Source: a virus (taxonomy: Duplodnaviria > Caudoviricetes). From it: DNA of 64,000 nucleotides. Under the pieces are notes generated by a model, which ran no database searches, was not told the DNA's origin, and saw nothing but the letters and a program-made list of their open reading frames with translations. A program made the translations under genes and the position numbers. Positions 2,748-38,357 of this stretch are shown here, piece by piece. Position 1 is the stretch's first letter; each line of letters opens with the position of its first letter. The stretch is taken from positions 32,001 to 96,000 of IMG/VR virus record IMGVR_UViG_3300021255_002052; one strand, 5' to 3'.

Positions 2748-2762
2748 CGGAAGGAGGAATCC

Positions 2763-4301: not shown

Positions 4302-4330
4302 TATATAAAACGAAAAAGGAGGAAAATACC

Positions 4331-4930: not shown

Positions 4931-4956
4931 TTTTTGAAGAAAGGAGGGAATAAGAC

Positions 4957-14646: not shown

Positions 14647-15212
14647 CAGTAAAAGAATTTATAGGAAAATATCATACGGCAAAGAAGGTCCCGGGAGGGG
14701 TCGAAACTTTTCTGGAACAGAGTCTGGTGACCAGATACGTTCCTTACCTAACGAAAAAGGTTATTTGTCAGAAAATCGTTGACGCCACTTATTACGTGAC
14801 GGAGAAGAATGATGACGGTGTGGTCGTTAATCGGAGATTCCGTGTAGACTCCGCGAACACCTATCTCCTGTTCATCACTAGATTGATCGCGACGTATTAC
14901 GGATTAGAACTATCCGAGAATATCGCCGACGATTACGATCTATTGAATCAGGAAGGGCTGATAGCTCCGGAAGACGGAGAATCAGTGACTCTGATCACCA
15001 GCATCCCGGCAACGGAATATGCGGAGTTCAAAGCGTTGTTAGATATGGCTAAAGCTGATATCACGGCTAACGAATATGAGCCGGGTGCGTATATCTCCAA
15101 TAAGATCAACAATCTCGGACTCATTCTCGGAACTGCTATTCAACCGATTTTGGATGCGGCGGGGATCACTCCGGAGGATATCAGGACTTTATTATTGAAT
15201 TCGCGTAGTTAA
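14643..15212 (+). CDS. Hypothetical protein, possible tail assembly chaperone (189 aa)
   Basis: Intact ORF with an ATGA overlap, upstream of the tape measure gene. Confidence 0.6.
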   Translation: MTVKEFIGKYHTAKKVPGGVETFLEQSLVTRYVPYLTKKVICQKIVDATYYVTEKNDDGVVVNRRFRVDSANTYLLFITRLIATYYGLELSENIADDYDLLNQEGLIAPEDGESVTLITSIPATEYAEFKALLDMAKADITANEYEPGAYISNKINNLGLILGTAIQPILDAAGITPEDIRTLLLNSRS

Positions 15213-15220
15213 ACGCAGTC

Positions 15221-15255
15221 AGGCTCCCGTGGTGTCATAGCTACGGGGGCTTTTT
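15221..15255 (+). terminator. Terminator hairpin with TGTCATAG loop
   Basis: AGGCTCCCGTGG-TGTCATAG-CTACGGGGGCTTTTT. Confidence 0.7.
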
Positions 15256-15270
15256 AAAAGGAGGGGAAAT

Positions 15271-15855
15271 ATGAATTTAGCAGGTTGGGCTGCTCGGTTA
15301 GAATAGAGAATAGAGGCGGGAAAGAAAATCGCGAACAAGAAAACAATACAGCTCGCTGCGAAAAAATCTAAGATGTTCGCAAAATATGCGGCAAAGGAGT
15401 TTTATAGTTCTTATGATCCCCTCTTTTATGGTAGAACTTATGATTTTTACAATCGACTTTTCATTATTGAACCAAAAGAGGAAGAGATTTTTGTAAAGGC
15501 ATCTTCTGCCGGTCTATGGGGGCATAGGGTATCTGGCGATTATATTTTAGAAGTTGTCGCTAATCAAGGATATCATGGAGGAGCCATGAGTGGTCCATCA
15601 GATTTTCACGGTAATTCGCATCCGGCACCAGGAACACCGTATTGGCGTAAACCAGCTACAGAATATGACGGTATCCCTCCATATTCCCTCTGGGGAAGAC
15701 CCGCAGAGAAAACCGAGTCTCCAATAGAGATTTTTTTAAGGTATTTCCGTGCTGCTGAAAAGAGCGATTTTAGTGATTGCTGGAATAAGACTTTTTTGAA
15801 GTATGTGTATACAAAAAACTTTCAAGATTTCTTAAAGATTAAAATAGAGTTATAA
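15271..15855 (+). CDS. Hypothetical tail-associated protein (194 aa, 1 TAG)
   Basis: AAGGAGG RBS, ATG 15271, in frame with ORF 15373..15855. Confidence 0.65.
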
Positions 15856-15872
15856 CCGAAGGAGGTGGTCTA

Positions 15873-18800
15873 ATGAGTGAAGAAATTAGTTTAGTTAAAG
15901 GTACAATAGAGATTGATTCTTCTAAATCCGTTGAAGCTACTAATGCGGTCGTTGGTGCATTGAAGGAAATGGCGGAACAAGCTGGCCAGACAAAGAGAGC
16001 TATCTCTGATGTATTTAAAACGCTCAACAACGCAGGGAATAGAAAAGGTATTACGGGATATGCCGAGTCTATGGAAAAGGCCTTAGAAGGTGTAGGAGAA
16101 ACGGCGAAAGATGCTCAGGATCAAATAAGAACATTAAATGATTTTATGAAGACCACTTCTAAGGGTGGGAAATTCCTAAAATCCAAAGAAGAATTAGCAG
16201 ATGTTATTGCCGGTAGCCTTATGCCGCAAGCTAAAGGTTTCGCCAAAAAAGAAGACCGGTCAGGGTTTGGCCGTACAGCGGATACGCTAGCTTAGTATGT
16301 GAACGCATACGTAGCCAAAGGTGGAACTTTGGACGATTCTGATAGTGTGCTGAAAAAGGCATTAAAGAAAAATGGTTTTGACCTTGATACTCTCATGGCG
16401 ATAAGCAATGAAGGGAACGCCGGAGATAAAACAGTCGAGAATTTACAAAATATCTACGGTATTGTAGATAAATTAGCCAGCACCAAACAGGTGGATCTAA
16501 GCGCAATTATCGATTCTAGTGCTTACCTTAAAGAGCTGCACATCATAGAGGCCGAAACTACGAGAACCATGGATAATATCATGGCAAAACTTGCAGGAAA
16601 AAGCAAAGGCCCTTCTGTCTAGAAAGATGATATCGCATCGAGCAAGACTTCATCACAGAGAAGTGCCGATATTAAAAGATTCGCTAAGACTCTTCTGAAT
16701 AGGGATATTCCTCTATCAGATGATGATAAAAAGTTGGCCGCGACATTATTAGGTGAAATTGAAGGTGAATTACGGTCAAGTGAAAATACCGATCTACGAA
16801 ATCAATTAAAGAATAAGCTTAAATTTAAAGGAAACTTCGAAGGCCCCGGGACTATGATGGACTTCTGGGATGCATTAAGAGAAAACGCGGGTGATGGGTC
16901 TATTGATGTAGAAGAAGCCATAAAATCTATAGATGTGAAATACACTCAAAGAAAAAAATAGGCATTAGACACGACGATCGCTAAGAAAGCTAAGAATGCC
17001 GCAGAAGAAGCTTTAAAGAGTGTTGATGGCTTAAACAAAGACCAGCTCAGATAGATGAGAGAAAAAATAAATGGCATGCTAGATGAATCGATCGCAAAGG
17101 AAATAGAAGAAGCATACGATGAAAAAATGAAAGATTTTGAGTGGCTGACGGACGAAGAGATCCAGGACAGATGGTTTAATGAACATACAGATGAGAGGGG
17201 AAAAGTCAAAGCTGGGCGCCGTAATGAAAGATTTGATGGCAGTAAAGGTGGCAAGAAAACGGAAAAAATTGGCGGAGATGCTGCGTATATCGATTATTTG
17301 ACTAGTAGAGGAATAGATCCGTATGCCAGGGAAGGCTTTACCGGTGATCTAACAGACGAAGAAACCAACAAAAGAGCATTAGAATTGATCAAGTCAAGAA
17401 AAACGCTTAGGGGGTTAGGTGAACAAGCATCGAAAGCGTACGCTGAGCAGGAAACGGAAGCGATTGAAAATCTTACGAATAGACTTCAAGAGGCAAACGA
17501 TAAGGTAGCTGAATTAAAACAGAATGCCGCAAAAATGTTAGATGGAGATGGGACAACAGAGGAAATCAAAAATATCATTAACGAATTAGATAATCTTAAA
17601 AGCGCTCTTGGAGAAATTTCTAAAGATGCATCAAGAGCCAAATTGACTGATCTGATCCCGGGATTTTATGATATAGATTCAACAAAGGATGACTTGTTAG
17701 ATTTAAGGTCTAACCTTAACAAAAGGTACGGAGAAGCTGAGAGAAAACAGCAGAGGGATGCTAATTTAAAGAAGGCTCGAGAAGCTTTCCAAAAAAACGC
17801 TAACATTGATCAATTCATGAAAGATGACGCATCTTTTGAAGATATCAAAAGAGCTATCAACGAAGAGAAAACGGCAATAGAAAATCTGAAGAATCTACAG
17901 AAGCAAAATGGAAAAGAAACATGGAAATTTACTCCGGAGGAGCTCGGTGGCGATATAGATGCAAAGATAACAGATTACACTCAAAATCTCTATACCCTAG
18001 CTGCCGCGCTAGATAAAGTTGCTACGGCCCAAGAAGAGGCTGCGGCAGAGACAGATAAAGCAGGGTCTTTCTATGGAGAAGCTAGTGATACGGTACTATC
18101 TGTAGCTGAGTAGCTTGGGGTTGCAAGGAAAGATAAGAACGGAAAACTATCTGTCGATGTTCGTGATATAGACAGGAATAGAGGGTTTTTAGCTGGTAAT
18201 GATTAGGCTGTCGCGTTTCTCGATATGCTAGAGAAATATGCGAGAAGGGATTCAGAGAAATTTGGATTCAAGGATTATACGGCAGACGACCTTAAAAAGA
18301 AAGTGTCCTCCGAAGAAAACGTTCGCGATGTACAGAATTATGTGGACGCCATCGAAAAAGGACTGGATCAATCTTCTGAAGAATTCCAGTAGATTCAAGA
18401 AGCTTATAAACGCGCGGTCGAGAGAATTCAGAAATTTGGTGAAGGACTGTCCCATTTCAAGATCGACGATTATTCGGACCCGAAACAAGTTCTGTCGGCT
18501 ATAACGGATAAGAATCTAGGCCTCTCAGATTACGACATTGAAAAAAATAGCCTTTTAGAAAGAACACACTCGCTCGCGGAGAGAAGGAAAGATATAGGGA
18601 AAACAGCAAGTGACCAAAGTGAAGAGAATATCCGGAACAGAATAAAAGCGTATAAGGAATTGCTACCCGAATACCAAGCGCTTCAAAAAGATCTCGACGC
18701 GTCCGAATTTAAGGACGATTTTCTTGCGCCAAAAGGCGGGATAAAAGAGTTTAAATACCTGGCCGGTGAAATTCAAGGCTTGATGGACCTCATCAAGAGG

Positions 18801-21800
18801 ATGGAAGCTGATCTCGAAAAAGTAACTGGTGAGAATCCGTTTAAAGATCTTACAGATGAGGTAGATAATTATAAGAAGTCGCTAGAGGATGTAGCAAAAA
18901 CATCGGAAACGGCACTGTCGAAAAAAACTATAGACTCTGACGGGATCAAATAGGAAATAGAAAAGATCAATGAAGCACTAAAAGAATATGCTGAGATAAA
19001 AGAGAAAGTTGAAAAATCCGAGTCTGCTGATGCTGTAAAAGAAAGAACGGGATTTGGAGCGATTGAGGACACCACTAAAGCCCTCGAGGATCAAAAGAAA
19101 AAGTTAGAGCAAAAGTTCGAAGTCCAACAAGAATATGAGAAGCTTCAAGCTCAAGCTCAGAAGCTAAGGACAGATCGAAACGCTATTAGCACCACGCAGA
19201 AAGATTACACTCAGGCAGAAGACGCAGATGAGGCGATCGGAAAACTTAAAAATCTCCAGGAAGAATACGAAAAGCTTAAAGAAGCGGTTGTGGCATACCA
19301 GAAAACCAGAGCTGATGCCGGTGATATAGCGTCGGGATAGGAATTCGATCTTGGTAAAAGACTTGGTGTCGATCAAATCGATAATATTATCAAGCAGATA
19401 GATACCAATATCGCGACACTTTAGAAACGGGCGGATAAACTACGCGGAGTAACTCCTGAACAGGAAGCCCCATCTTCCACTGGCTCTACTTAGTCAAGAG
19501 GTGAAGAGACAAAGAGTACGGCTTCTTCTGATACAAAGGAAGAGGCTAGAGCAATGGAACCTCTCGAAAATGAGGTTAGGGCGGTCACTCGGGCGGTAGA
19601 TGAAAAGACTTAGGCCTTTGATCGTGAAGCGACGGCTGTTGGTGCAAATGTTATCAACGAAGTGGCTGACCTTGAGAAACTCCAGAAGATCCTCACCGAA
19701 ATCGCGAAGACAACCGCTGATGTCACATAGTTCCCGGAGGGTTTTGTCAACCAGCTAAAAGCGATTGGTAAGATCGACATAAAAGATGGAGTTCCTGCTA
19801 AGATTGAGGAACTTGCGGAAGCACTGACCAAGCTGTCAAATTCTCTCAATAGTATCTCAGGCGAAGGTGCCGCAAATATATAGCATCTTAATACCCTAAT
19901 TAATTCAGCACAGGAAGTCGGTGGAGTTGTTAGTGCTCTCGCGAAGGTAAGCGAGAAGAATAACGGTGCATCCGCTACTAACGAAGAATAGCTGTTCAAA
20001 ACATATGATCGTCTGAAATACGCTATGACTGATTACTACGCAGTAATCGATGAGGGTATAAAGAAGGGGTATTTAGATAAGGACTTCTGGGATAAAGCGG
20101 GTGTTACAGACCCGACGGATTATGAAGTCAGTGATCAAATCCCGTCCGACCCGGGATATTATAACAGATTCGTGGCGGCAAGATCAAAAGCCCGCAAGAT
20201 GAATCAAGAACTTGAAAAGAGTGTCTCCAACTATAATCAGAATGCCGAATCTCAGTACGATTATGATTCTCTGGCTAAAGGAGCGAGGGAATGGGCACGG
20301 GCAAATCAAGACGCCCTCTCTTCTATCGAAGAATTGTCTCGGGCAGAGAAAAAGAGATCAGATATTGAACGAGAACTAGTCACGAAGGCTGATCAAAATA
20401 AAAACTCTGAATATTATAAAAAGCTGACGGATGATTTAAAGGAACAAGAAGATGCTATAGAAAAAATAAAAGCAGATATTAAGTAGACTTTCGCTGATCT
20501 GGGCTCTGATGGTGGGTTTGTTGGCGGAGATGTTGATTCGTTAATTAATGAAGCTATCAGCTAGGCCGGAACTAAGAATAAGGAAGCCGTAGCTAATACC
20601 ATTGCCAAATATAAGGATGAGCTACGTGGCCAATTAGACGAACTTGTCAAAGAATACGGATTTAACAAGAACGATAATAGAATCAAACGACTGAATACGG
20701 CCATAAGCGGAGTGACTGATCTGACCGGTCGCAACCTCGTAGAAAATCAGATCACTGACCTGATGGAAACTAAAGACAAAAAAGCTGCGACATTAAAAAG
20801 ATATTCCAAGGAATATGCAGAACTTAATCGACTTCAACTAGAACAGGCGAAAACCGATTAGTCGCAGGATCCTTAGAAATTTTCCGAGGTAACCACAGCT
20901 ATTCAGGCACAGCAAAAAGTCGTTGCTGAGCTAGTCAATGAATACAAAAACCTGTCCACCGTTAAGAGAGACGCAGAACGGGAACTGGCTGCCGAGGCGA
21001 GGACTGTTCGGACAAAGCAGGGAAATGTTTCTGACGAAGTAAAAGGCTATAAGGATGAGGCGACGAAGCAGCTTGATAAGATAGCTCAAAAGCATAATAT
21101 CAAAAAAGACAGTTCCGAGTATGACGCGTTAGCCAGACAGATTTCGAAAATTAAAGGGAAGACCCAACAATCTAAGATTTTATCTAAGATAGATGATCTG
21201 GATAAAGATTATACTCGTAAAACACAGGCTAAAGATAATAAAGAGACTGTTGAGAAAAAGCTAAACGATATTATAGAAAAGCGCAAGTTAGACAGAAATG
21301 GTATCTATAAGGGAAGAATTGAAGCTCTGGAAGCCTCCAAAACGGAGACTAAGGAAGAACTGAACGATACATTAGATGAGATAGACAAATTCGATGCCGA
21401 AATTAAAAAGAGGCAGGATAAGGGCAAGAAAGCTCTATCTCATTACAATGAAGCTTACACTAACCAAGCAAAATTAGAAGCTCAGGCCGTCGCCACTACT
21501 CCTCTCGATGCAGGATATGACCAACTGAACAATGCGTTGGATGAGGCGAAGAATAAGACTGCTGCTCTACGCGCAGAGACTCTATCCTATGTCGACGTGA
21601 TTCCTAATATCGGAAATTAGATGAAGGATGTTGAAGCTACGGCAGATGCGACTTACGACAAACAAGCCGCCATTATGAAGCGCTATAAATCTGAAAAAGA
21701 AGCCAGAGAACAGCTTAACTATAAATACAAAACAACCGACTATGGTAATCCTAATAACACGTAGGCGAAAGCTCAGAGAGACGAACTTCAGAGGCTAGAT

Positions 21801-24800
21801 GGGATTCTTCAGGAATTAGACAGCCGTTACGTCAGCTTGGCCGCCTCTGCCGGACAGGCAGCGACTGCTACCCAACAGATGGCCGACGCGAAAGCAAGTA
21901 TCGGAAAAGATAATATCAATAAGCTTCAGGGTAAAATTGACGAGTATAAAGACTCTGCGAATAAACGTCTAGCTGACACGCTCTCTTCTACCGGGATTTC
22001 AACTACCGGTGCATACAAGAATTTCATAGAGAATATTAAGGGACAGATCGGAAACATCGACTCTGCTTCTTCTCTAAAAGACGTAGTTTCGAAGATAGAC
22101 AACTTTAAAACCTATATTTCTAAACGCTAGACGAAGTCCACTGGTCTGTTAGATGAATATAAATAGGCTATGACCCTATAGTCTCAACTTCAGGCTCAAT
22201 TATCCACAATGAAACCTGGAGATGCGGGATTTGACAAGATCAAGCAAGATCTAGACGACGCGACAAAGAAAACCAGCGAATTACGTACATAGCTCGAACG
22301 TTTAGACGATGTGACGCCGGATATTAGTACGAAGCTGGATACCTTTGACAACGAGGCGAAGGCCACGGCTCAAGCTGAGAAAGAAAAAGATTTACTGGAT
22401 CAGATTACTAAAGCAGAGGAAAAACGTGCGAATGCCCAGAAAAGGCTAGTATCTACCAACACGGATGCTCCGAGTAGCGCGAAGGTTTACGCAGAGGCTA
22501 ATCAGGAAATTTCGACCCAAACAGAATTAATCAATAAGCTCACTGAAGCGTATATGAACCTAACGGGCGGAACTACTGCCGCTCAAGATACCATCGCCAG
22601 AACAATAGCTGGAGCGGGCGCTGATACCAAGGCCAGTATGGCGCAGTAGATTGAACGGTATAAGTCTCAGGCGTACAATGAATTGAATAGCTCGGCTATT
22701 ACCGGTTCTGATTTCACGAAAATATCTGATAACATATCTAATCTCACAGGGAAAACAGATCTAGACAAGATTCTCCAGACAATTAAAGAACTTAATAAAG
22801 AAGCACAAAAACCGACTGAACAGCAGAATAAGCTAAAAGAATATGTGGAAGCTGTTAAGGAACAGGAAAAAGCTCAACTGCACTTGAATGCAATAAACAA
22901 AGACACAAACCCGTATGCATGGGATGCGCAAAAGAACGCTGTAGACCAACTCACACAGAAGGTGCGGGACCTCGGTGAGGAATATGTCAAACTCTCTTAT
23001 AATGAGGAAGTTGCGAGGAATGCCCTAAAGTTTAACGCCGGAGAAGCGGTAGCTGAGGTTGATCGTAACTGGAGTGGTAAAACTACAGCCAATTTCCAAG
23101 ACGAGACACATCAATATTTTCTTCGATTCCTATAGAAATATGGGAATATCTCAGACAAAAATCAGGATTATCTGAATATACGTAATAGAATTAGAGGAAT
23201 AATGGATGCCACATCGGCGAGTGGTGTCAGAACGGATATTGATGAATGGGCTAATCGCTTAGACCAGGAAAGAAAAGAACGAGAAGAGCTATACAGCAAA
23301 TTATCTACTAAGCAATGGAAAGATTATGGGTATCTACAGGGAAAACTCGAACTTGCCGGAGGAGATACGTCGAAACTAACTTCCGACGAATTGAGCAGAT
23401 ACAACGAATATCTACAAGTCTTATCAAAAATCGAACAAAAGATCGGTGATATCACTAAAGGGGTGTCCGGACTAACATTACCGGAAGGTATAACTGACGG
23501 CGAGTTTTCTAAGATAGACAAAATGCTCGACAATGCCAAGGAAATGCAGAAGTCGAAAGCATTTGAAATCAAGGTAGGGAATAACCCGGAACTTCAGGGT
23601 TATCTGCTTCAAATTAATAACCTAAGAAATGTGATCGACGGTATAGGTCCAATAGCAGATAGAGCTGAAAATGAATTGGCGGAGCTAAATGCTCAATTCG
23701 CTAAAAAAGGCGACATGTCTGGCTTCACGGAAAGAGCGCAAGAGGTCGTATCTAACCTGAGTAAAATTCAGAGAGTGATGCCGGAAGAAACCACTAGAGA
23801 AGGTGGTGTTGCTGCGGCACGGAGCATGATCGAACAGAGAAGTGGTGGTACTGCTACCGGCTATAAGGTAGATTATAACGGCAACACGTCTACTGTCACG
23901 GCTGAATATAGAGACCAGAACAATATGATCCGTACTCTTTCGGCCTCTTATAATGAACTTGACAGGAGTATTAGTCTCACGCAGACAAGGGCTGTATAGG
24001 GATAGACCATAATGCAACAATTCGCCGAGGGGCTCAAGCAACGCATGATGAGCCTCGGCTAGTATCTTCTGACTTTTGTGTCCTTCTACGATATTATTAA
24101 TATGGCGAAGTAGGCGGCATCGATCGTGACAGATTTCGATACTGCTTTTACTGAGATGAGAAAAGTATCAGACGAATCGGTTTAGTCGCTAAAGCAATTC
24201 CAGGAAGAGTCTTTCGCTATCGGAGATTCAGTTGGAACGACCGGATTACAGATCGAACAGTCCACCGCTGAATTTATGAGACTTGGATAGGCTCTAGAAG
24301 AAGCAAAAGAATCCGCAAAGAATGCCAACATACTTTTTAACGTATCAGAATTCGATACTATAGATGAAGCTACGGAATCCCTAATCGCGATGTCTTAGGC
24401 ATTCGACGATGTGAGCCAGACTGAAATCATTGATTCGCTCAATAAAATTGGTAACGATTTCTCAATCAGCACATCTGGACTATCAGAAGCCCTCCAAAAT
24501 TCCGCATCAGCATTAAGGACATCTGGAAACGATCTAGCTGAATCCCTGGCCATCCTAACCGCTGGTAACTAGGTCGTGCAAGATCCGAATAAAGTCGGGG
24601 CTGGCGCTAGAACAATCGCTCTGCGTCTGTCTGGAACTGATCAGGCGAAAACTGAGTTGGCGGAATTGGGTGAAGAGACCGAAGGTGTCATTACTACGGT
24701 CTCAAAACTCAGAGATACAATAATGAACGCCACGAGGGTATCTTCCAATTCCTACAAAGGGTTTGATATTCTAAATGAGAATGGGAATTATAAGAGCACC

Positions 24801-27800: not shown

Positions 27801-30800
27801 GATTCTGATGGACTGGTGACAGACGTACAGGCAGTCTCTGATCTTGTTGCGGGAATGACTTTTGATAATCTTTCCGGACTTGGAACATATTTCGATACTA
27901 TAGCAGAAAAAGCGAGAATTAATTCTAACGTATTTGATGATTTACGCAAAAAGATAATTGATCTTTCGGATTTATCATCTGTAAGCTGGGAAGATATTAT
28001 AGATTCTGACGCTTATAAGAGTTTGTCTGGTTACACGAGAACAAAACTAGCTGAAACTGGAGCTCCGACAGAGGTCCTAGCTAAAATTATACTCAGAGGA
28101 GATATTGATCTCAATACTCTTGAGCAGGATATCCAAGAAGGTATCGCCCAGATCGAACACCGGAAATTCTAGGCTCAGATATCTGTACTGACGACTTACA
28201 ACTCCGACATTTCGTCTATTAGAGATGCGGAGGCCGAAATCGCTCAGGGTACGATGACACCGGACAAAGCCCTCTCTCTCGCTTCTAGCTTACCGGAAGT
28301 GGCAAAGGCGGCGGAAGAACTAGGCCTCACGTTTACAGATATGAATGCCGACGAGATCTTAGACGATGTCGACAAACTATAGGTTGCACTGGCTAATGCG
28401 AAATTTGACAGACTAGAACGACTCCTATCTGATAAAAATGTCGGTCGAGCCGAGAAACTCTCTGCCATAGCTAACGCGGATCTTTCCGGCAATACGCGTC
28501 AAAATGATTATCTCGCCAGAGGAGGCCACGTACAAAACGAATGGTTAGCTAATAGGCTAGCTGGCGAAGGCGAATTTGAGAATACATACGGTTTTGGCCG
28601 AGAGTCTGCGTACCAGACGGTGGTCGGCGTTTAGATGATGCTCGACGCAGGGTCTTTAGAAAATACCGAAGCTTCTGTAGAATAGGCATTCTCGGCACTA
28701 GAGCCTAAGGTCGCGATCTAGTTGGCGGAAGGTTCGATCAGAGATATTGAACAGCAGATTACCACGATCTCACAGGTCGCTAGCGACTAGATGGCAAACG
28801 GATACGTCACTTAGGAGCAGTTAAATACCCTGAAAGCTGCCGGTATCGATTATTCGCAGATGCTCGAAGTCGGTGCTAAAGGCTGGAAACTGAACACGGA
28901 TAAAGTCCAGGAATACGAAGATGCTCTCCGTGCGGTTCAGGTGGCTCAGTCGAAACAAACCGAGAATATCGCGAAAGATAGGGTGGCTGCCTTAGATAAA
29001 TAGATGAAGGAACTCCTCGGAGAAGGATCGGGGTCAGCTAAAATAGCAGAAGAAGCCGGTAAGAACGCCGCGAATAATTTTGTCAGTGGCATGTCTAGCG
29101 AGCTCGAAACTGCGGCCAGAGGTGGAACTACAGCATACGGAAAAGCAGAGCAAGAAACCGCTAAGACAGATATCGCGGAGCGCATTCAGGCTGGTGCATC
29201 AGCACAGGATCTATTGGATGAAGGATACGGATTCCAGGATCTGGCGGCTGCTCAGAATTATCTCGATCTTTCTGATGCCAGGGCTGAGCTGGAAGAAACA
29301 ATATAGAAGCAACAGCAGTACCAGATGGCTACAGCGGCCTCTATAGATATAGCCAAACAGTTCAGCGAAGCAAGTTCTGCGGCCAACGACCGTGATCTGG
29401 CAGAGACTGTTAGCGGCGGAGTTAAAGGTGCGTTAGAGACGAAGAATAAGGGCTGGTGGGGAGATAAGAATCTTCAACAGTATGCGAAGTTCTTTGCGGA
29501 TAAAGACACACCTCTTTATAAGGCGCTCGATGAATTTGAATCATCTTGGAATAACGTCTGGTCGAAGTATTACGGTTCCGATGGAGAGATAACCGACGAC
29601 GGAGTTCAGAAGTTTATTTAGGACTCAGTCGGAAAAGGACTTACTCTCGATTCGGAAGTTGGGGAAGATGGTTATACGTTCGACTGGCTCTTAAAAGACG
29701 TTAATATAGATGAACTGGCTAAATCCTGGGATACTAGTACCGAAAATATTATCGCTCTTCTCTCCGCTTTTGAAGACACTCGTTCTTGGGATCAAGTTGA
29801 CTGGAGCTCGATATTTGGAAGCACTGACGAAATAAGTGATTCTGCTTCTGCAATGGACGAGTACATAAGCAATTTAGAGATTCTTCAGAAATATAATCCT
29901 GAAATGGATATGGGGTAGTACTTCTAGACGGCAGCGGAAGGACTCAAAACTCTCTAGGCGAGCGATCCAAATGCAGACATACAAGGGTACGTAGATAGGC
30001 TTAATCAATTAGCGCAATTGACTGGTTAGGATTATGTGGTAACAGTTACAGACAGTGGCGATTTCGAAGTCGTCGACTCGAAGCTCGCTGAAATGCATGA
30101 AAAGATTGATCAAATCAATAAGAGCAATATTACCATTAACGCAGAAGGGAAAGTAGAAACCGATTCTGAAACAGAAAAACAATTAAATGCACTAGCCGAT
30201 TACGCAAACGGTGATGGCAAGGAGATGATGCTCAAGTGGGGATTTAAACCCGCTGAGAATGGTCAATTTACGCCGGAGGACTTAGCCAAGTAGATCATCG
30301 AGTTCCGCTGGAAATTTAGCGAAAAACCGGAAGTAGAACCTGGAGAAACTGGCAACGGTAAAGGATTTCATAGGGGTCCAGTAAAGAAAAATGCTAAAGG
30401 GGAACTCATAACCGGGGCTGTAGAATATACAGATTCGGGGGTAACCGAACCTGAAACCCATGTCATTGAGACAGAAACACCTACAGATCCGATGGAAAAC
30501 CTCAACAGTGGCGTAGATAATATATATAGCGGAATTGAAACAGCTAATGGATACCTGGCGACGATCGCAGGGAAAGCAGAAAAAGACTCTGAAAAAGATG
30601 AAGGATCAGAGCCTAAAACTGACGAGTCTGATACACCAAAAGACAATAGCGACAGACCTGATAAACATGGCCCAAGCACTACTAAAGAATATCGCGATCA
30701 ATTAGTGTCGGAAGGTAAAGTCGCAGAGGATACATCAACCGTATTTGAAAATTCAGTAAATGAATTATAGGAAAGCGCGAAAGAAGCCTACGAAGAAGCA

Positions 30801-33800
30801 CATGGTATCACAGAAGGCTTGCCATTAGTTTAGAATGCCATAAATGCAAATACATAGGCACAAGTTGATAACACCACCAGTGAAGAGTCAAAAGAGAACA
30901 TTCCTATCGATTTGCCGTATAATGAAGAGCCAGGTGTTGAAACAGGTTTACTTGGACTTACTCATCCTATCGGAGTTCCTTCATTTGGTCATGAGGTGTA
31001 TGCTTCCGAAAACGAAGGTGGTGATACAAGTTTCGTTGAGACCCCCACCGAAACCGAACAAACCGCTGAAAATGTATCTGTAAGTGGTCAAGTGGTTTAG
31101 GTCACAGATGATACCAACACTCCTGGCACTCTATCCAAAGGTGAGAGCCTTACATCGGAACAGAGATCGGAGTACTCTTCCACTGCCGAAACCCCAGAAG
31201 GTGAAGCATACGAGCCGGAATCTCAAACTTCTAGAGCAGTCATCAACGCAGACGTTGCTGAACTTAACGCTGATCTTCCTAACGAAACCGATCCTAATTA
31301 TCAGCCGCCTTCTGATGATTTCAATTATCGATTCATAAATCCGTCGAATCCTTTCACATACGGTCAAGCACCGCAACCCGCTCCGGGACAATCGCTCCCA
31401 ATGAATTAGGGGTTACAATTACAAACCGTCGAAGGGACTACCACACCGGGCGAATTATCCGCTTCTGAAGTTTCGGTAAGCGGCGGATCCGTAACAGTAT
31501 CTGGTCCAGTCGAGATACCTACGAGTACACCGACGGAGACTTCGACGTTCACTCCCACTCCTACCATTACTTCTGCCCCGGCTCCGGAAGCACCTACCAC
31601 TGAAGCGACTACGACGGTTACGGTAGAAGCAGACGTTACCCCAGCGGAAGAAGCCATAGCGGGGCTAGAGGATAAAACCGTAACAATTGGAGTATAGATA
31701 GAAACGCCGTAGCCAGAGGAGTTTTAGGGCGTTCTTGACCGAGTGGGTAATTCTGGTCCGCAGTCAGTATAGGTAGATGCATCTGTTCAAGATGGAGCGA
31801 CTGAAGGTTTATAGGAAGTTGAAAATAAAGCCAATGAGGTAGACGGCTTAAATCCGACAGTCACGGCAGAAACTTAGGATAACGCTAGTAGTGTTCTGGG
31901 CAATATAGTGAGTAGCGCGTAGGAAGTTGATGCTCAAACTCCGAATGTGGGCGTTGAAGCGACGGATAATGCGTCCTCTACTTTGGATAAGGTTAAAGGC
32001 CTGGCTGACGACGTAGAATCGACAGATCCAAACGTGAGTGTTAGTGCTAGTACAGGAAATACTATAAGCGTTCTTACGGATATTCTCAACAAAGTTAATC
32101 AACTGCCACCGAGCAGAATGATTAACATAACGACAAAATATACCACAATCGGAAATCCTCCTGGGCAAGCATCCGGTACCTTCCACCCAGCCCAAAACCT
32201 CGGCACTGTTAAATCAGCATTTGCTGATGGTACTGTTGGAAAGCTATGGGATGATTATTCTAGACAAAACAGTCTAGGTGCATATGCAAGAGGAACCGAT
32301 GTAACGCTCAGTCGTAACCAAGACGCATTGGTAAACGAGGTCGGTATTGAATCCATCGTTCGTGACGGTCAATGGATGCTAATGCCAGGTGGCAATGGCG
32401 TTCATGTAGAGAGCCTCAAACGCGGCGACATAGTTTTCAATGCCAGTTAGACTGCTGACCTAATCAAACACGGTAAGGCTTCTGGGCGCGGCAAAGTAGC
32501 ATACGCATCTGGTACTGCTACCAGCCCAATGCCCGCTTTCGTAAAAGCGACCGAAGAGCCGACCAAAGTACGACACAACAGAAATATCGTCCATAGCACT
32601 AACGGCAAAGGTCACGTCGAGATAATCAGAGATGGCAACCTCGTCGATCAAATCAGCGGCGTTGTCTCTAAGATGGCTCACGAAGTCGCGGGTGCAATAG
32701 AAGATGTTCAAGATAATAGCCCCGATTCGTGGTCTGACGGCTACGGAGTGACGCATCTGATCAACGCGCAATCTGCGGCTATTCAGGCTAACACTGCGGC
32801 GACGCAGAACAATACCAAGGTTAAGAATCAAGAAGCGACCTACGTAGACTTCGCGGAAAAGGTCATGAATCGCCTGTCCAAAGCGACGGCGAGACTTCAG
32901 AACCGCATCACGGAGTTTACCACCTATACATTTAAGAAGAACACCTTAAGATCCGAACTCGATTCTCTCGCTGACGAAATCGCGGCGGCTTCTGCTGCTC
33001 TCCCGGTCTATGCGGAGTACTTAGAGATGCTCCGTAATACCCCGATTCAGCACGAGTCCGGTTCTGATAGTGGCGGAGGTGGCGGCGGAGGATCCGACTC
33101 CGGTTCTGATTCTAGCGCCGATGATACGGCCGAAACAGATGCCGAGGCAGCTGCTACCAGGCTCGAAACAGCTAAGAGTAATCTCAAAGCGGCGAAATAG
33201 AACCTGAAGCAGAACTATAAACTTTCCGACGAACAAAGTAAGAAGCTTAAGAATAATAAGAAGATCGACGAATCCGAGATTAAAGGATCGAATAAGAAGA
33301 ACGCGGCTTCCGTATATAACGATGCGCTGAAGCAGTATAAGCAGTTAAAGAAACAGGAAGATACCGCGACCGAAACGACTGCGAAAGAAACGAGTAAGTC
33401 CGTTAAGAATACTGAGAAATCCACTGCCGAAGTTGCTCAGACTAGTAGTCAGACGGCTTCTAATAGTGGGGCTATCGTATCTAGTGCGGAAGCTGTACAG
33501 GCGTCCGGCTACGATATTGCGTCGTATACGGCATTGGGCGCTGCAGCTGGTTAGGATACTCTCACGGTGCTTCAGACAATTGCCGGATAGATAGCTGGCC
33601 TATCTACTCAGATTGCCGATATTAGCGTCAATGTTAACGTGAATGGCGGATCTGTGAGTACAAGCTCAGGCGGCGGATCTAAAAAGTCTGGAGGTGGAAA
33701 TAGCGGGGACGACGGTGACGACAGCGGAAATGGTGGCGTCGACGATTATTCCTGGAGTAAGAAGAATCAAAAAGCTATCGAAAACGGTGAAAAGATCGAC

Positions 33801-36800
33801 ATCTCCACCATCGATCCTTCCAAGAAAGATAAGATTAAAGCCGCCAAGCAATATAATAAATCTCTGAAGAATGGCGGAGGATCTAGTAGTTCTGGTTCCA
33901 GTAATAAGAGTTCCGGCGGTAATTCTGGCGGAAATGTTAAAAGTAAATCCGGAGGTGGAGGACTTTCTGTCTCTAGCAGTAACAGCGGTTCCGCGAGCCC
34001 CGAAGAAAAGCAGTTCAAGAAAGAAATGAAGGCGGCGGCTAAGGAAGTTAAGAACTCCTATTCGCTCACTTCTAATTAGAAATCTTCGATTAAGAAAGGT
34101 GAGACTTTATCTACTAAGGGTATCACCGATCCGACGAAGAAGTAGGCTTTCCAGACATATAATCAAGCCGTAAAGAAATATAACAATGCTAAAGTTTCTC
34201 GAAGCGTTACGAGCAATAGTAATAATTCAAGTTCAAGTTTCGATAACTTCGGACCTAACATGGATTACATCAACAAAGTTCAGTCTTCTCTGGGCAAAGG
34301 CGGCGGAGGAGGCGGAGGAGGCGGTTTCCAGAATGCCAGGATTATGATACCAGAAGGTCTTGCCACAGGTGAAGAGACCACTGAAATAGATCCGGCATTT
34401 GCTGGTGATTATCTTGGTGCGTACGCTGATCTCCTTGAAGATAATAATCTGGTCGATATTCTTGGGCTAGATAAAGATCTGGCTGCCGCTATAGAGGAAT
34501 ATGATGAGTTCTTAAGCAAACTTGAAGACACTAAAGATACTCTCGAATAGCTCTATCAGCAAGTCGTATAGGTCTGGGATTAGATGGCGCAAGCTCCGCT
34601 GGAAGAAGCTGACCGTCAGATCGAACAGCTAGAATTAGGAATAGATGGTCTAACTGCGGCTCTCGGTCGGTTAGATAGCGCGATGGCGGGTGGTTCTACA
34701 CTCAACGTTCTCGACACTATCAGAGAGACATAGAAAGCTGCGGCAGATTATACCGCGACATCTCAAGCGGTTCTCGATGCTATCCGTGGCGTAAACGCTG
34801 ATAAAACAGAAAACGCGGCTAAACAAGTAGAAATTAGACGGTGGGCGGTTGACGAAGCCAAGCAGGTTCTCGATGACGCATAGACCGCCATGGATGACCT
34901 AACTCGCGAATTAGATACGAAGATCGCTGAATATAAGAAAATTCGAGAAGAAACCGAAGTGAAGGTAGCTTAGGCCCAGGGCGAAGTGACTGCCACTTCT
35001 GCTGCTGTAGCTGCTCTGGAAGAAACAGATGCGATAAAATATTATAATGATGTCGGCGCATTGTGGGGCAAAGGTGCGCTACTTATGAGCGGGAATATTG
35101 GTATCGCTGGAACTGTTACTGGCTACGATCCTCGCGTATGGAATGAGATTAAGTGGCGGGGTGATGACTGGAAGTTTATGCCCGGCGGCCCGCTAGAAGT
35201 TGGATAGGAAAGAGCTGGAGATCCATATGCTGATCAGAAGCCGCAAACATCCGGTGGAGTTATAGATGAATACAAAGCTGCTGTTTAGAAAGCCGGGGAA
35301 GCGACGGCAGAACTTACCTAGCAACAGACGGCGCTTAGGGAAGCTACCTATATGCTCGCCCAGGCGGAACTCGACAAAACTCTCCGCGAGGAGATGTAGG
35401 CAGAGATTCTCCAGCAAGCTAAACTCGCATATGATTAGGCTCAGACTGCGTTAGCGTAGGCCGAATCCGAATACGCGGCTCAGTACATCCAGGAAATCGT
35501 AGATAACTTCGGCGCAGTAGAAGAAGCCTTCGAATCTGTACTGAATTATCAGAAAGCTCTCGACGAAAACGAAGAACTATACGTCAAAAACGCAGAAGAT
35601 CGCGGAAACCGTATCACGGCGGCGATGCGTCAGTTCCAGTCAGGCAATCTTATCGGACAAACCGCGACGCTAAGAGCAGAAATCGCGGCGCTGAACGAAG
35701 AACTGTCTGGTGATAGGCTAGTCTACGGATCTAAGGAATGGAACGACCTGATGTCCCAGATCCTGGATAAGGAGACGGAACTTAACGATCTACTGAATCA
35801 GCAACATAGTATTCTGCTTAATATTCTCTCCGACGTGAAAGAACATTACGGTGTTCTGATCGATCATCTGGAGCAGGTTAATAAGCTGAACGATGCGTGG
35901 ATTGATGCCGCCAAGGCTATAGGCGATTACGAGACGGAGCTCTCCTACGTATAGAGATATGCGGAACAGCAGGGACTCGTTAATCTGTATCTACAGCAGT
36001 CGGCAGATGCGTAGGAACAGTTTAATAACTTGGTTGCAAGCGGAGAACTGATCGCTGGTACGGATGAATATATAGCCAAACAGTCAGAGGTTCTGAGTCT
36101 AATTAACGATGCCAAGGATGCCCAGAACGAACTTCGCCAGATTGAAGCCGACCGTATCCAGTATACTATCGACCGCTACGAAGAGTTACTGGAAAGAACC
36201 GACAACTACGTAGATATTATTCAGGCTCTCGGGTCTCTGATTACTGATGCTGCTAAATTCGATTATAAGACTGGCAATCTGACCGATATGGGACAGGCGA
36301 CCATCGCTATAGAGATGACGGCTTGGCAGGAAAACACCGAGCAGTTGCGCGACGTACTCGAAGAACGGCAGAGACTGCGCGACGAATTCGCTAGTAATCC
36401 GGATTTCGGAGAACAGGCATTTGCGGAAGCCCTCGACGCTAACGATAAACAGATTCAAGAGTATCTGTCTAATATCAAGGGTGCGGCGGATCAGATCGTT
36501 GAAATCGGAATAATGATAGCCGAGAAGCAATTAGCGGCGATTAATAAGACAATAGATGCTAGGAAAAAGGCGCTCTAGCTGGAGCAAGATTATTATAATT
36601 ACGACAAGTCGTTAAAGAGTTCGACGAAGGACATAGAGCTGTTAAATGCTTAGATTTCGGCCCTTGACGGCGTAGCAGATGCTGAGAGCCGCGCAATGAA
36701 GGCTCGTCTCGAAGCTCAGAGGCAAGAACTTCAGGAAGACTTAGATGATACTGTAAGAAATCACGTCGTTTCGCTCCAGACTGAAGGCCTCACCGAGATG

Positions 36801-38357
36801 CAGGAGCAGTTAGCGGACAACCTCGACGAATGGCGCAACGAGCTGTAGGGAGACATTCAGAAGCAGCTTGATTATATTAACTCTCTCAATCTGTCTGCTA
36901 GTAACATCGAGGCTGCTCTCAACAAGCTAGTGTTAGGTGCTTCTAACGGTGTGGCTACTCTCTCCGATGTTGAAACGGCGGTTAAAGAAAACGGTCTTCT
37001 GACCAGTACTGTATCCGACGTTAATAAGCAGTATGAGGAAGGTCATGCTAATGCGGTAGCTACTAAACAGGCTCAAGATGCTGGTGCCGAATTGGCGGCT
37101 CGTATCCAGGGCGCGATCAATACCCTCGGGACTAGTGTCTCTACTACTAACATCGACAAGTTTACCAAGGAGTGGGCGGAAGTCGCAGATAAGACGAACT
37201 ATAATATCGGATCTACGGATCAGACCGGTAAAGATATTTAGGCTCTAATCGATTAGCTGAAGAGCGATGTAGCTCAGAATCAGTCTATGAAGAAATGGGT
37301 AGACGCGATCGCCGCCGTTAAGAATCCGACTTATAACTACTCTCAGGCGCAGATCGACGCGATGGCGAAGTCTGGCAATGTGGCAAAAGCGAACTATAGT
37401 TCCGTGATAACCAACGCAAAAGCGGTCTGGGATAAGATGTCCGCCGAACAAAAGAAAGCTTATAACGAAATCGCGGGGTCCTTCCACGCCGGTAAGACTG
37501 TCGATCAGATGCTGGCCACCTACACTAACGCTGTAGATTCTCTGAATAAAGCGGTTGCTACGAACGTCGAAAAGGCGAAGGCTGAAATGGCGAGAAAAGC
37601 TGCCGAAGAGGCTAAGCGTAAAGCCGAAGAAGAAGCCAAACGCAGAGCGGCGGAAGAAGCTGCGAGAAAGAAAGCCGAGGAAGAAGCGAAGAAAAAGGCT
37701 GAAGAAGCTGCCAAGAAGAAGGCCGAAGAAGAGGCTAAGAAGAAGGCCGAGTAGGAAGCCCAGGATCCATGGGGACTAAGAAGATTCATCATGGGCGGTG
37801 GCGGAGGTGGAAGCTATGGAGATGGTGGATACTCCAATATGCTATACGGTGTCCAGTCAGCTCCTGCCGCTACGACCACTAGTTCTTCTAAAGAAAAGGT
37901 TTATGTGCTAACTCCGAAGGGTGATTATAACCTGAAAGAAGGCGAGATCCTTGTAGACACGAAGAAGTCCAAAAAGAAAAAAGCTACCGGTACGAGATAC
38001 GCTCAGAAAGGCTTAACTCTCACCCAGGAAAAAGGCGGAGAGATCATCACCACAAAAGATGGTGTTCTTGTGCCGCTTAAAGCCGGTGATGGAGTGATTC
38101 CGGCTCATTTGACGGATAAATTATTCAAGATGGCTATGAATTATCCGAACATTGGGCAAACTATCACTCTGCCGTAGGTACAACCTGCGCAACAGAATCT
38201 TACGGTGAACTATGGTTCACTTCTTACGGTTAACGGAGATGTAGATAAAGAGGCTCTTCCAGGTCTCCAAGACATTCTCAAGCAAGCATATCAGTATACT
38301 AGTAAACAATTAGCCATAGACGCTAAGAAAGCAGGAATGCGTCAGGCAAGATATTAA
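15873..38357 (+). CDS. Giant tail tape measure protein (~7,494 aa with TAG=Gln)
   Basis: Thirty ORF fragments from 15873 to 37791 all lie in one frame, and the junctions I checked are TAG. TP901-type TMP core at ~24000-25100 (DTAFTEMRKVSDES...QDPNKVGAGARTIALRLSG). Ends TAA 38355-38357. Not every gap was checked codon by codon. Confidence 0.82.
37570..37762 (+). repeat. (K/R)KAEEEA-type charged tandem repeats (single alpha-helix) in the TMP C-terminus
   Basis: RKAAEEAKRKAEEEAKRRAAEEAARKKAEEEAKKKAEEAAKKKAEEEAKKKAE. Confidence 0.85.

What the first reader, a model, noticed from the sequence alone, without database searches (positions are those of the whole stretch)
15873..38357. Tape measure gene of ~22.5 kb (~7,500 aa) hidden by recoding
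Seen: one continuous frame containing a TMP core. Known: tail length scales at about 0.15 nm per TMP residue, and the very long-tailed Thermus phage P74-26 has a TMP of about 5,000 aa. Inference: either a tail near 1 micrometre, or a polyprotein carrying large ejected cargo domains. Its many TAGs make it the gene most sensitive to suppression efficiency.
Basis: partly seen in the sequence, partly recalled or inferred. Interest (0 to 1): 0.75.

Follow-up and report, generated by a model that had tools for sequence, protein, structure and literature searches.

The report
Giant TAG-recoded phage tape measure gene
This is a genuine 7,494-residue tail "ruler" gene of an uncultured phage that reads the stop codon TAG as glutamine. 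It is half again as long as the largest studied ruler and predicts a tail of about one micrometre, but it is one member of a populous, undescribed clade of similarly giant rulers and not a one-off.

Summary
Window 15873-38357 (+) is one frame of 7,494 codons with 96 in-frame TAGs and no TAA or TGA. It starts behind a strong ribosome-binding site and ends at TAA. It holds a real tape-measure core (Pfam PF10145, PHROG 4211). It sits where a siphophage TMP should, between conserved small tail genes and Dit-like/Tal genes.

TAG means glutamine. The column at TAG codon 5526 is Gln in 31 of 31 homologs.

The protein is about 80% helix-compatible filler strung between four conserved anchors. The 2,650-residue N-terminal extension has no homolog elsewhere and is predicted all-helical. 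I found no enzyme or cargo domain.

It is not unique. I found 42 database relatives of 4.2-7.6 kaa, plus TAG-recoded relatives of 5,960, 6,353 and 7,650 residues. This scan had already met the clade on other DNA.

I found no paper describing a TMP above the 5,002 residues of Thermus phage P23-45/P74-26. At 0.15-0.18 nm per residue the gene predicts a 0.9-1.3 micrometre tail. This is untested.

Some relatives carry the same gene in two pieces or interrupted by insertions (a group I intron in one). The window copy is uninterrupted.

Verdict: a real, extreme, new member of a known kind.

The parts
15858..15868 (+). Shine-Dalgarno site GAAGGAGGTGG, 4 nt before the ATG of the TMP gene
   Evidence: Read directly from the sequence. 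Neighbouring late genes have similar sites.
15873..38357 (+). Tape measure protein gene: 7,494 codons plus TAA, with 96 in-frame TAG codons read as Gln
   Evidence: frame; TMP families; TAG=Gln
15873..23822 (+). N-terminal extension, aa 1-2650: charged, helix-rich, lineage-specific filler
   Evidence: No family hit. No homolog in 5.8 billion proteins except fragments of the same gene. No alignment to the N-terminal parts of any relative. AF2 on aa 1-1200 gives 71% helix, no beta domain, at low confidence. Pro+Gly is 3-12%.
20370..22922 (+). Diverged tandem duplications inside the extension (aa ~1500-2350, period ~150-235 aa)
   Evidence: Window-against-self BLAST, best pair aa 1806-1917 vs 2042-2155, E 2e-14
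23820..25922 (+). Anchor A: conserved TMP core (aa ~2650-3350), including PF10145 at 24219-24848
   Evidence: It is 40-57% identical to relatives, and most invariant columns of the family alignment lie here.
25587..25655 (+). The only strongly hydrophobic segment (aa 3239-3261). A Gly-rich hydrophobic stretch lies ~120 aa upstream (aa ~3100-3125).
   Evidence: Kyte-Doolittle scan, maximum 2.03. A membrane-inserting role is inference from other TMPs.
25923..30272 (+). Helix-compatible acidic spacer between the core and the linker region (aa ~3350-4800)
   Evidence: Composition. Partly alignable to P0002, P0003 and L002 only.
30270..32282 (+). Pro/Thr/Gly/Ser-rich, probably non-helical linker region (aa ~4800-5470)
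   Evidence: Pro+Gly 15-20% in most 100-aa windows (10% in two), poor helix propensity. AF2 pLDDT below 50 in the flank of anchor B.
32304..32474 (+). Anchor B: small conserved domain (aa 5478-5534), five strands plus one helix, motif ALVNE.G.ES..RDG.W...PGG...E.LK.GD.VFN..QT.DL. It contains the TAG codon at the invariant-Gln column 5526.
   Evidence: pLDDT 92-96. Conserved in 38 of 42 relatives. Falls inside the PHROG 167 TMP match. No structural or Pfam match.
33030..34352 (+). Gly/Ser/Lys-rich low-complexity region with repeated Lys-rich motifs (aa ~5720-6160)
   Evidence: Translation, composition, internal repeat aa 5768-5826 vs 6049-6107
35730..36992 (+). Anchor C: conserved helical block (aa ~6620-7040, with a YYNYDK motif corresponding to the family's YYDYDK)
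   Evidence: Aligned in 23 or more relatives at 21-37% identity. No Pfam family.
37620..37750 (+). Charged Ala/Glu/Lys/Arg repeat. It is the only DNA tandem repeat in the gene.
   Evidence: Tandem Repeats Finder, period 24/48. It caused the single spurious PDB sequence hit.
37983..38354 (+). Anchor D: conserved C-terminal domain (aa 7371-7494, motif GGEI...DG.L.PL..GD.V.P)
   Evidence: 60% identical to P0003, 57% to L002, found at the very end of the full-length relatives that retain it. Contact with the tail tip is inference.
14185..15855 (+). Three small genes upstream (153, 189 and 208 aa), conserved next to the TMP in relatives. Presumed tail tube or assembly-chaperone genes.
   Evidence: 65%, 41% and 26% identity at the same positions in L002; also found in L013, L062 and L065. 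Their functions are not shown: Pfam and PHROGs are silent except a Holliday-junction-resolvase-like match for the 153-aa gene.
38423..43143 (+). Dit-like gene (307 aa) and Tal-like gene (1,269 aa) directly downstream
   Evidence: DUF6558_C, weak, 22.8 bits against a cutoff of 24.4; PF06605 Prophage_tail at 42.8 bits against 31.3; PHROG tail families. The Dit-like gene is conserved downstream of the TMP in G002 and G004.

Best explanation
The gene encodes a single 7,494-residue tape measure protein of a large (roughly 180 kb), TAG-to-Gln recoded siphophage that probably infects Firmicutes. It can be made only late in infection, once the phage's amber-suppressor system reads all 96 TAGs. By analogy with studied TMPs (inference), a few copies bind the tail-tip complex (Dit/Tal) through the conserved C-terminal domain. 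The tail tube then polymerises along the extended, mostly helical chain until it reaches the N-terminus. Most or all of the chain therefore sets the length, and the tail should be about 0.9-1.3 micrometres, as long as or longer than any measured phage tail. At infection the protein is expelled, and its hydrophobic segment after the core helps form the channel (inference). Shown: a real continuous frame, TMP identity, TAG=Gln, conserved gene neighbourhood, a four-anchor architecture shared by a large family, and helix-rich filler of very variable length. Inferred: tail length, assembly order, ejection.
For: The frame and its start are real. TMP core: PF10145 above its cutoff and PHROG 4211/167. 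The core resembles annotated TMPs of Bacillus, Brevibacillus, Lactococcus, Enterocloster and Clostridioides phages. It is the only PF10145 match in the 109.8-kb record. Dit-like and Tal genes follow it, and conserved small genes precede it. No gene large enough for a sheath lies between the head genes and the TMP. TAG=Gln: column 5526 is Q in 31 of 31 homologs, 6927 in 21 of 26, 2747 in 29 of 42; Q5526 is invariant in the family alignment; 18 of 37 TAG columns are Q in the closer relative P0198. A tRNA with anticodon CUA is on the contig. Ruler-like build: about 62 of 74 100-aa windows are helix-compatible; aa 1-1200 are predicted 71% helix with no beta domain; there are diverged tandem duplications; each inter-anchor spacer varies 2-4 fold across 42 relatives. 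One-piece relatives exist in both codes: L002 6,353 aa with 183 TAG, G002 7,650 aa with 153 TAG, G004 5,960 aa with 132 TAG, L014 5,974 aa with no TAG. At least three largely independent lineages cluster at 7,464-7,650 aa, although only about 14% of the window protein aligns with them. This hints that total length is what is constrained. Precedent: the 5,002-aa TMP of P23-45 'defines the length' of a tail of nearly 1 micrometre (PMC10770324, PMC10034513).
Against: No particle, tail length or peptide has been observed. About 1,200 residues are Pro/Gly-rich and unlikely to be helical, so 0.15 nm per residue may not apply to them. The fold of aa 1-1200 is a low-confidence single-sequence model (mean pLDDT 51.6), and aa 1200-2650 were judged from composition only. 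Many relatives encode the protein in two genes, split just after the core with 4-7 kb of other genes between them, so the part before the split need not be covalently part of the ruler. The N-terminal extension has no homolog at all, which would also fit a fast-evolving effector. Full-length yield falls as p to the 96th power, only 38% at 99% read-through per codon. The record is an estimated 60% complete, so a second TMP-like gene elsewhere is not excluded.
Confidence: 0.6

Rival explanations
1. Only part of the protein is a ruler. The core-to-C-terminus part (about 4,800 aa or less) measures the tail. The orphan 2,650-residue N-terminal extension, and perhaps the linker regions, is ejected cargo or a periplasm/cell-wall-spanning device, as in the virion RNA polymerase fused to the P23-45 TMP. 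The tail would then be about 0.4-0.7 micrometre.
For: There is a precedent for an N-terminal cargo enzyme on a giant TMP (PMC10770324). The extension has no homolog and differs even between close relatives, as expected of an arms-race module. Relatives split the gene exactly behind the core. Relatives carry cell-wall-binding and other globular inserts (PF01471, PF01473, PF19127, PF08230, PF08239).
Against: Nothing enzyme-like is in the window protein: no Pfam or PHROG hit, no relative among solved structures, an all-helical prediction for aa 1-1200, no Cys, 9 His in 2,650 aa, a single DxDxD inside a helical repeat, and no HExxH. Tandem duplications and low Pro+Gly look like ruler filler. In P23-45 the whole 5,002 aa, cargo included, go with a tail of nearly 1 micrometre (about 0.18 nm per residue, my arithmetic from the papers' figures), so cargo and ruler are not exclusive.
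Confidence: 0.25
2. It is a polyprotein. The primary product is cleaved, for instance near anchor B, into a conventional TMP of about 5,500 aa and a second tail or ejection protein of about 2,000 aa. Each would end in a similar small domain.
For: Anchors B and D share a loose motif (…E.G.E.I…G…P.G..V..L..GD.V…T..L, by eye). PHROG 167 TMP profiles match around anchor B at 60-73% of the profile length. In G003 the parts before and after anchor B lie in separate frames. Processing of TMPs is known for lambda gpH and T5 pb2 (my knowledge, not checked here).
Against: No protease domain or cleavage motif was found. The break in G003 lies in a region that holds a group I intron, so splicing and not separate proteins may explain it. 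The B-C-D order is kept in one frame in nearly all full-length relatives.
Confidence: 0.1
3. It is an artefact: a chimeric assembly, or a decayed pseudogene whose frame happens to be open only when TAG is ignored.
For: Metagenomic contig, no reads available. The record is linear and estimated 60% complete.
Against: There are 7,494 codons without TAA or TGA, against 251 and 636 in the other two frames. Codon-position GC is uniform. Conserved columns at TAG sites are Gln. The anchor order is identical to that of relatives. Fragments of the same gene occur on other contigs. There are no long DNA repeats.
Confidence: 0.03

Closest known systems
TMP gp96 of Thermus phage P23-45 and its P74-26 homolog (5,002 aa; longest measured phage tail, nearly 1 micrometre; PMC10770324, PMC10034513)
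   Same: A giant single-chain siphophage TMP with a very long N-terminal part ahead of the recognisable TMP features. The size predicts a micrometre-scale tail.
   Different: There is no detectable sequence relationship. The window protein is 50% longer. Its N-terminal part shows no polymerase signature and is predicted all-helical. No metallopeptidase domain was found. It is a mesophilic gut or rumen-type phage of Firmicutes-phage ancestry, and its gene needs TAG suppression.
TP901-1-type TMPs with the PF10145 core in Firmicutes siphophages (Brevibacillus phage Sundance, Bacillus phages PBC2, Thrax2 and SPbeta YomI)
   Same: They share the core domain (25-31% identity over 350-550 aa), a hydrophobic segment after the core, and a position upstream of Dit/Tal.
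   Different: In the cultured phages the match covers only 23-37% of a 1,500-aa query. Anchors B-D and the 2,650-aa extension have no counterpart in GenBank phages by these searches. No lytic transglycosylase or peptidase domain was found in the window protein.
TMPs of phAss-1 and related TAG-recoded human-gut phages (3,149-3,209 aa; PMC10607447)
   Same: A TAG-to-Gln recoded large siphophage in which standard annotation shatters the TMP gene. Long TMP.
   Different: The window TMP is 2.4 times longer. No megablast match to any GenBank phage record. Direct relatedness to phAss-1 was not tested.
Uncharacterised metagenomic clade of giant TMPs (P0002-P0043, P0198; IMG/VR loci L002, L062/G002, L072/G004, L014 and others)
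   Same: They share the four collinear anchors and the same flanking genes. Lengths are 4.2-7.65 kaa, in both the standard and the TAG-recoded code.
   Different: The window copy is uninterrupted and in one piece. It has the longest B-to-C spacer seen (1,410 aa) and an N-terminal extension unrelated to any of theirs.

Membership tests
Phage tail length tape measure protein, TP901-1/PF10145 type | Core domain PF10145 (PhageMin_Tail) above the curated cutoff | tested here: met
   46 bits against a cutoff of 33.2, aa 2783-2992; 48.5 bits in the genome search; PHROG 4211 E 6e-54
Phage tail length tape measure protein, TP901-1/PF10145 type | Gene lies in the tail module, after tail tube/chaperone genes and directly before Dit and Tal | tested here: met
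   A Tal-like gene (PF06605, 42.8 bits) and a weak Dit-like gene follow it. Three conserved small genes precede it; their tube or chaperone identity is not shown. The portal gene lies at 771-2324.
Phage tail length tape measure protein, TP901-1/PF10145 type | Mostly alpha-helical, extended chain with hydrophobic or Gly-rich segment(s) after the core | tested here: met
   Composition scan, AF2 71% helix for aa 1-1200 at low confidence, hydrophobic segment at aa 3239-3261
Phage tail length tape measure protein, TP901-1/PF10145 type | Protein length determines tail length (about 0.15 nm per residue) | not testable with these tools
   It needs virions. The only indirect hints are the variable spacers and the clustering of total lengths.
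Phage tail length tape measure protein, TP901-1/PF10145 type | Single TMP gene per genome | tested here: inconclusive
   One PF10145 match in the record, but the record is estimated 60% complete
TAG-to-Gln (table 15) recoded phage late genes | In-frame TAG at positions where homologs conserve Gln | tested here: met
   Q in 31/31, 21/26, 29/42 and 27/42 homologs at four conserved TAG columns; invariant column Q5526; 18/37 in P0198
TAG-to-Gln (table 15) recoded phage late genes | Phage-encoded suppressor tRNA with anticodon CUA | tested here: met
   ARAGORN finds a tRNA(CUA) at genome 28566-28657, 3.3 kb before the window. It is drawn with a long variable arm, unlike tRNA-Gln. Its charging identity was not tested.
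TMP-fused virion RNA polymerase (P23-45 gp96 type) | N-terminal two-barrel RNAP with a conserved DxDxD metal site | tested here: not met
   There is one DxDxD (aa 1775) inside a helical repeat. Pfam, PHROG and PDB sequence searches gave no hit. No beta-barrel is predicted in aa 1-1200. Aa 1200-2650 were not folded.
Lambda gpH C-terminal region (Pfam PF09718), recalled from memory as resembling anchor B | Match to the family profile | tested here: not met
   No Pfam family matched anchor B or D, even at E up to 5

The most novel reading that the evidence does not exclude
Gut or rumen Firmicutes phages of this clade build tails longer than one micrometre, the longest of any virus. Total ruler length would be held near 7,500 residues in several lineages that share only about 14% alignable sequence. 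That would point to a physical or ecological optimum, such as crossing a thick capsule or mucus layer. Because the ruler needs 96-183 amber codons read without a miss and assembles from its C-terminus, tail building would be possible only after the code switch is complete.
Probability: 0.3. Interest if true: 0.7.

Novelty: new member of a known kind. Interest (0 to 1): 0.5.

Why it matters
If the whole chain measures, these phages would hold the record for tail length. They would provide a natural series from about 0.8 to 7.6 kaa around one homologous core, on which the ruler rule could be tested over a tenfold range. Such tails raise practical questions. How does a tube of more than 1,500 subunits assemble without error? 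How does DNA travel a micrometre? What host surface demands such reach? The gene is also the most stringent natural test of amber suppression that I know of, because 96 consecutive read-throughs are needed for one protein. For annotation, it shows that standard pipelines shred the largest gene of these genomes into dozens of false small genes.

Tried and rejected
1. Misassembly or chance frame: rejected.
2. TAG decoded as Ser, Leu or Tyr, suggested by the long variable arm of the tRNA(CUA): rejected for the protein, because conserved TAG columns are Gln. The odd tRNA remains unexplained.
3. Hidden gene boundaries at TAGs: none of the 96 TAGs has an SD plus an in-frame restart.
4. Cargo enzyme in the N-terminal extension: Pfam, PHROGs, PDB sequence search, motif scan and AF2 all gave nothing.
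5. Identity of anchor B by structure: the domain folds confidently, but Foldseek (best E 0.5) and VIA-align (best Z 3.5, TNF/C1q-like jelly rolls) give only background matches.
6. Pfam at E up to 5 on anchors B, C, D and the hydrophobic region: nothing meaningful.
7. Close relatives by exact peptide patterns in IMG/VR: none. The alignment-based scan worked.
8. Megablast against GenBank phages: no match.
The standard code of the roughly 7.5-kaa database proteins (P0018 etc.) is therefore unverified at DNA level. Standard-code giants up to 5,974 aa are verified in IMG/VR loci (L014).
That step was dropped.
11. Programmed frameshift between the 189-aa and 208-aa upstream genes: only a 14-nt overlap and no slippery site, so inconclusive.
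12. Literature searches for any TMP above 5,002 aa or for 'giant/longest tape measure': nothing beyond Gordonia phages and P23-45/P74-26.
Full report
OBSERVATION. Under table 11 the stretch 15873-38357 holds only fragments of at most 352 aa. With TAG read as a sense codon it becomes one ORF of 7,494 codons with 96 TAGs. I counted 0 TAA and 0 TGA in frame. The other two forward frames of the same DNA hold 251 and 636 such stops. GC at the three codon positions is even along the gene. The ATG at 15873 follows GAAGGAGGTGG. None of the 96 TAGs is followed by a strong ribosome-binding site and an in-frame start, and neither is any of 198 control CAG codons. The only DNA tandem repeat is a 128-bp stretch coding for a charged Ala/Glu/Lys repeat.

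WHAT IT IS. PF10145 (PhageMin_Tail) matches aa 2783-2992 above its cutoff. PHROG 4211 'tail length tape measure protein' matches aa ~2691-3835 at E 6e-54, and PHROG 167, also a TMP family, matches aa ~5322-5614. By tblastn the core resembles annotated TMPs of Brevibacillus, Bacillus (including SPbeta YomI), Lactococcus, Enterocloster and Clostridioides phages at 25-31% identity. No GenBank phage matches at DNA level. The window is a phage virion module: portal at 771-2324, head genes, then the giant gene. After it come a Dit-like gene (weak DUF6558_C), a 1,269-aa Tal-like gene (PF06605) and further tail and fibre genes. No ORF large enough to be a sheath lies between the head genes and the TMP, so the tail is presumably non-contractile. 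The window is bases 32001-96000 of a single 109,771-bp virus record that CheckV rates about 60% complete. The record holds only this one PF10145 match.

THE CODE. ARAGORN finds a tRNA with anticodon CUA 3.3 kb upstream of the window. It is 92 nt long and is drawn with a long variable arm, which is a class II feature and not that of tRNA-Gln. I therefore tested the meaning of TAG independently. I masked the 96 TAG positions as X and aligned the protein to 42 homologs. Gln is by far the commonest residue at TAG columns (167 of 592 aligned cells). At the conserved columns it dominates: position 5526 is Q in 31/31 homologs, 6927 in 21/26, 2747 in 29/42 and 2842 in 27/42. Q5526 is an invariant column of the 12-sequence family alignment. 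In the closer relative P0198, 18 of 37 aligned TAG positions are Q. Table 15 is therefore right. The tRNA's shape is left as an unexplained side observation.

ANATOMY.
(i) Aa 1-2650 form a charged, Pro-poor extension. AlphaFold without an alignment predicts 39 helices covering 71% of aa 1-1200, two three-residue strands and no compact domain, at low confidence (mean pLDDT 51.6). Aa ~1500-2350 contain diverged tandem duplications (best E 2e-14).
(ii) Aa ~2650-3350 are the conserved core (anchor A). A Gly-rich stretch and the only strongly hydrophobic segment (aa 3239-3261) follow it.
(iii) Aa ~3350-4800 are a helix-compatible acidic spacer.
(iv) Aa ~4800-5470 are Pro/Thr/Ser/Gly-rich linkers.
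(v) Anchor B (aa 5478-5534) folds with pLDDT 92-96 as five strands and a helix.
(vi) Aa ~5720-6160 are Gly/Ser/Lys-rich low complexity.
(vii) Anchor C is a helical block at aa ~6620-7040.
(viii) A charged repeat follows, then anchor D, the C-terminal domain at aa 7371-7494.
The protein has no cysteine, 37 histidines, no HExxH motif and one DxDxD inside a helical repeat. About 62 of 74 100-aa windows are helix-compatible and about 12 are rich in helix breakers. Anchors B, C and D match no Pfam family even at E 5. No part has a relative among solved structures by sequence. Anchor B has only background structural matches.

THE FAMILY. A length-restricted search with the core found 42 proteins of 4,207-7,628 aa. 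All share the anchors in the same order. The spacers vary 2-4 fold:
- N-terminal part: 1,021-3,701 aa.
- A to B: 1,399-3,606 aa.
- B to C: 480-1,330 aa in the relatives; the window's 1,410 aa is the longest.
- C to D: 179-739 aa.
An unrestricted HMMER search found 2,451 proteins at E below 1e-30. An alignment-based scan of IMG/VR gave 80 loci, mostly on contigs of 75-218 kb.

Reading the frame through the core in each locus shows three groups:
- TAG-recoded giants: L002 with 6,353 aa and 183 TAG, L065 with 5,777 aa and 125 TAG, L073 with 4,755 aa and 92 TAG, and others running off the fetched ends.
- Standard-code giants with no TAG: L014 5,974, L080 5,413, L025/L078 4,938, L054 4,620, L035 4,286, L005 4,209 aa.
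- Many frames of only 0.8-1.7 kaa.
After fetching the missing flanks, G002 has a single frame of 7,650 aa with 153 TAG and G004 one of 5,960 aa with 132 TAG.

In L002, the nearest relative (57% identity in the core), all anchors lie in one frame, and the upstream genes of 153, 195 and 196 aa match the window's 153, 189 and 208 aa. The window gene is thus a large but typical member of a populous clade.

This scan has reported the same clade from other genomes: 4,552, 5,359, 5,608, 6,153 and 7,473 aa, with a claim of relatives up to 8,310 aa that I did not verify. I found no paper describing a TMP above 5,002 aa. The recoded phAss-1 group has 3,149-3,209 aa.

SPLIT AND INTERRUPTED FORMS. Many of the nearest homologs end at core position 455-480. 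In L013 and L010 the gene stops there, just before the Gly-rich segment. It resumes 4-7 kb later in another frame, with several small genes in between. A second recurrent break lies inside anchor B. P0016 and P0023 end right after LK(K/R)GD. In G003 the 6,237-aa frame ends there and resumes 1.6 kb later, and anchor D lies in a third frame. Rfam finds a group I intron within this interrupted region of G003. That agrees with earlier notes of the scan describing a GDI|VFN splice junction. The insertion inside anchor B itself did not reach Rfam's threshold. The window gene has neither interruption, although the window does hold a group I intron elsewhere, at 5366-5735.

HOW IT MOST LIKELY WORKS. 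The following steps are inferred from established TMP biology. The C-terminus docks in the tip complex, the tube polymerises along the chain towards the N-terminus, and the chain is ejected at infection. Several results favour the whole chain acting as ruler:
- The helix-rich, duplication-prone, length-variable spacers.
- The absence of any enzyme-like domain.
- At least three largely independent lineages (the window; the G002/P0018/P0022 clade; P0028) fall at 7,464-7,650 aa, although their segment lengths differ by up to about 1,000 aa and only about 14% of the window protein aligns with them. This last point is a weak hint (n = 3) that total length is constrained.

Arithmetic gives the following figures:
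- 7,494 x 0.15 nm = 1.12 micrometres.
- The helix-compatible ~6,200 aa alone give 0.93 micrometre.
- Without the N-terminal extension the figure is 0.73 micrometre.
- With the ratio implied by P23-45/P74-26 (5,002 aa and 'nearly 1 um', about 0.18 nm per residue; PMC10770324, PMC10034513) it is about 1.3 micrometres.
In P23-45 the cargo polymerase is part of the full-size virion protein. Cargo and ruler are therefore not exclusive.

THE TAG LOAD. The TMP holds 96 of about 263 in-frame TAGs on the contig, and the next gene has 15. Its density (12.8 per 1,000 codons, 22% of Gln codons) is ordinary among late genes. At 99% read-through per codon only 38% of chains would be complete; at 95% the figure is 0.7%. 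Because assembly starts at the C-terminus, truncated chains would be excluded from tails (inference). Only a few chains per virion are needed.

RIVALS. A partial ruler with a non-ruler extension gets 0.25. It is favoured by the orphan extension, the two-piece relatives and the P23-45 precedent, and weakened by the lack of any domain. A processed polyprotein gets 0.1. An artefact gets 0.03.

LIMITS. There were no reads, particles or peptides. The Atlas tool did not accept the recoded translation.

VERDICT. This is a real, uninterrupted, TAG-recoded tape measure gene of 7,494 residues. It is an extreme new member of a known kind, belonging to an undescribed clade that this scan has met repeatedly.

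Noticed in passing
genome 28566-28657 (3.3 kb before window base 1; outside the window): The only tRNA with anticodon CUA is 92 nt long and is drawn by ARAGORN with a long variable arm, as in Ser, Leu or Tyr tRNAs. Yet conserved TAG columns say Gln. Either it is an unusual Gln-accepting tRNA or the fold is wrong.
   Followed up: partly
L013:6242-21314 and L010:7385-21129: In many relatives the TMP is encoded in two genes, split just after the core (window aa ~3105-3130). An island of 4-7 kb with small genes on both strands lies between the halves.
   Followed up: partly
G003 record (L090/L091); L090:5941-6228 (-): In this TAG-recoded relative the TMP frame ends inside anchor B and resumes 1.6 kb later. 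Anchor D lies in a third frame, and Rfam finds a group I intron in the interrupted region. P0016 and P0023 end at the same LK(K/R)GD point, which suggests a recurrent insertion site.
   Followed up: partly
window 5366-5735 (+): Group I intron (RF00028, 61.9 bits against a gathering score of 50) in the head-gene region, between ORFs 4957-5403 and 5923-6501.
   Followed up: no
P0198 against window aa 5039-6940 and 2717-3113: The TMP is a mosaic. P0198 is 67% identical over the C-terminal third but only 47% over the core, so halves of the gene appear to recombine between lineages.
   Followed up: partly
G002 (L086+L087) against P0018: A TAG-recoded TMP (7,650 aa, 153 TAG) and a database protein called as one uninterrupted ORF (7,628 aa) are 67% identical over 92% of their length. 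They may be close relatives that use different codes. The DNA of P0018 could not be fetched.
   Followed up: partly
window 15873-38357: There is not a single cysteine in 7,494 residues, and only 37 histidines.
   Followed up: no
window 14185-14646 (+): A 153-aa gene resembling Holliday junction resolvases or endonucleases (PHROG 190, E 6e-27) sits inside the tail module just upstream of the TMP. It is conserved at the same place in L002 at 65% identity.
   Followed up: no
window 15199-15229: The frame of the 208-aa gene before the TMP opens 14 nt before the end of the 189-aa gene, and its GTG start has no ribosome-binding site. It could be a tail-chaperone frameshift pair, but there is no classic slippery site.
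   Followed up: partly
window 44236-50388 (+): A second very large late gene (2,050 aa, 11 TAG) has only partial PHROG matches: an unknown family and a head-decoration-like C-terminus.
   Followed up: no
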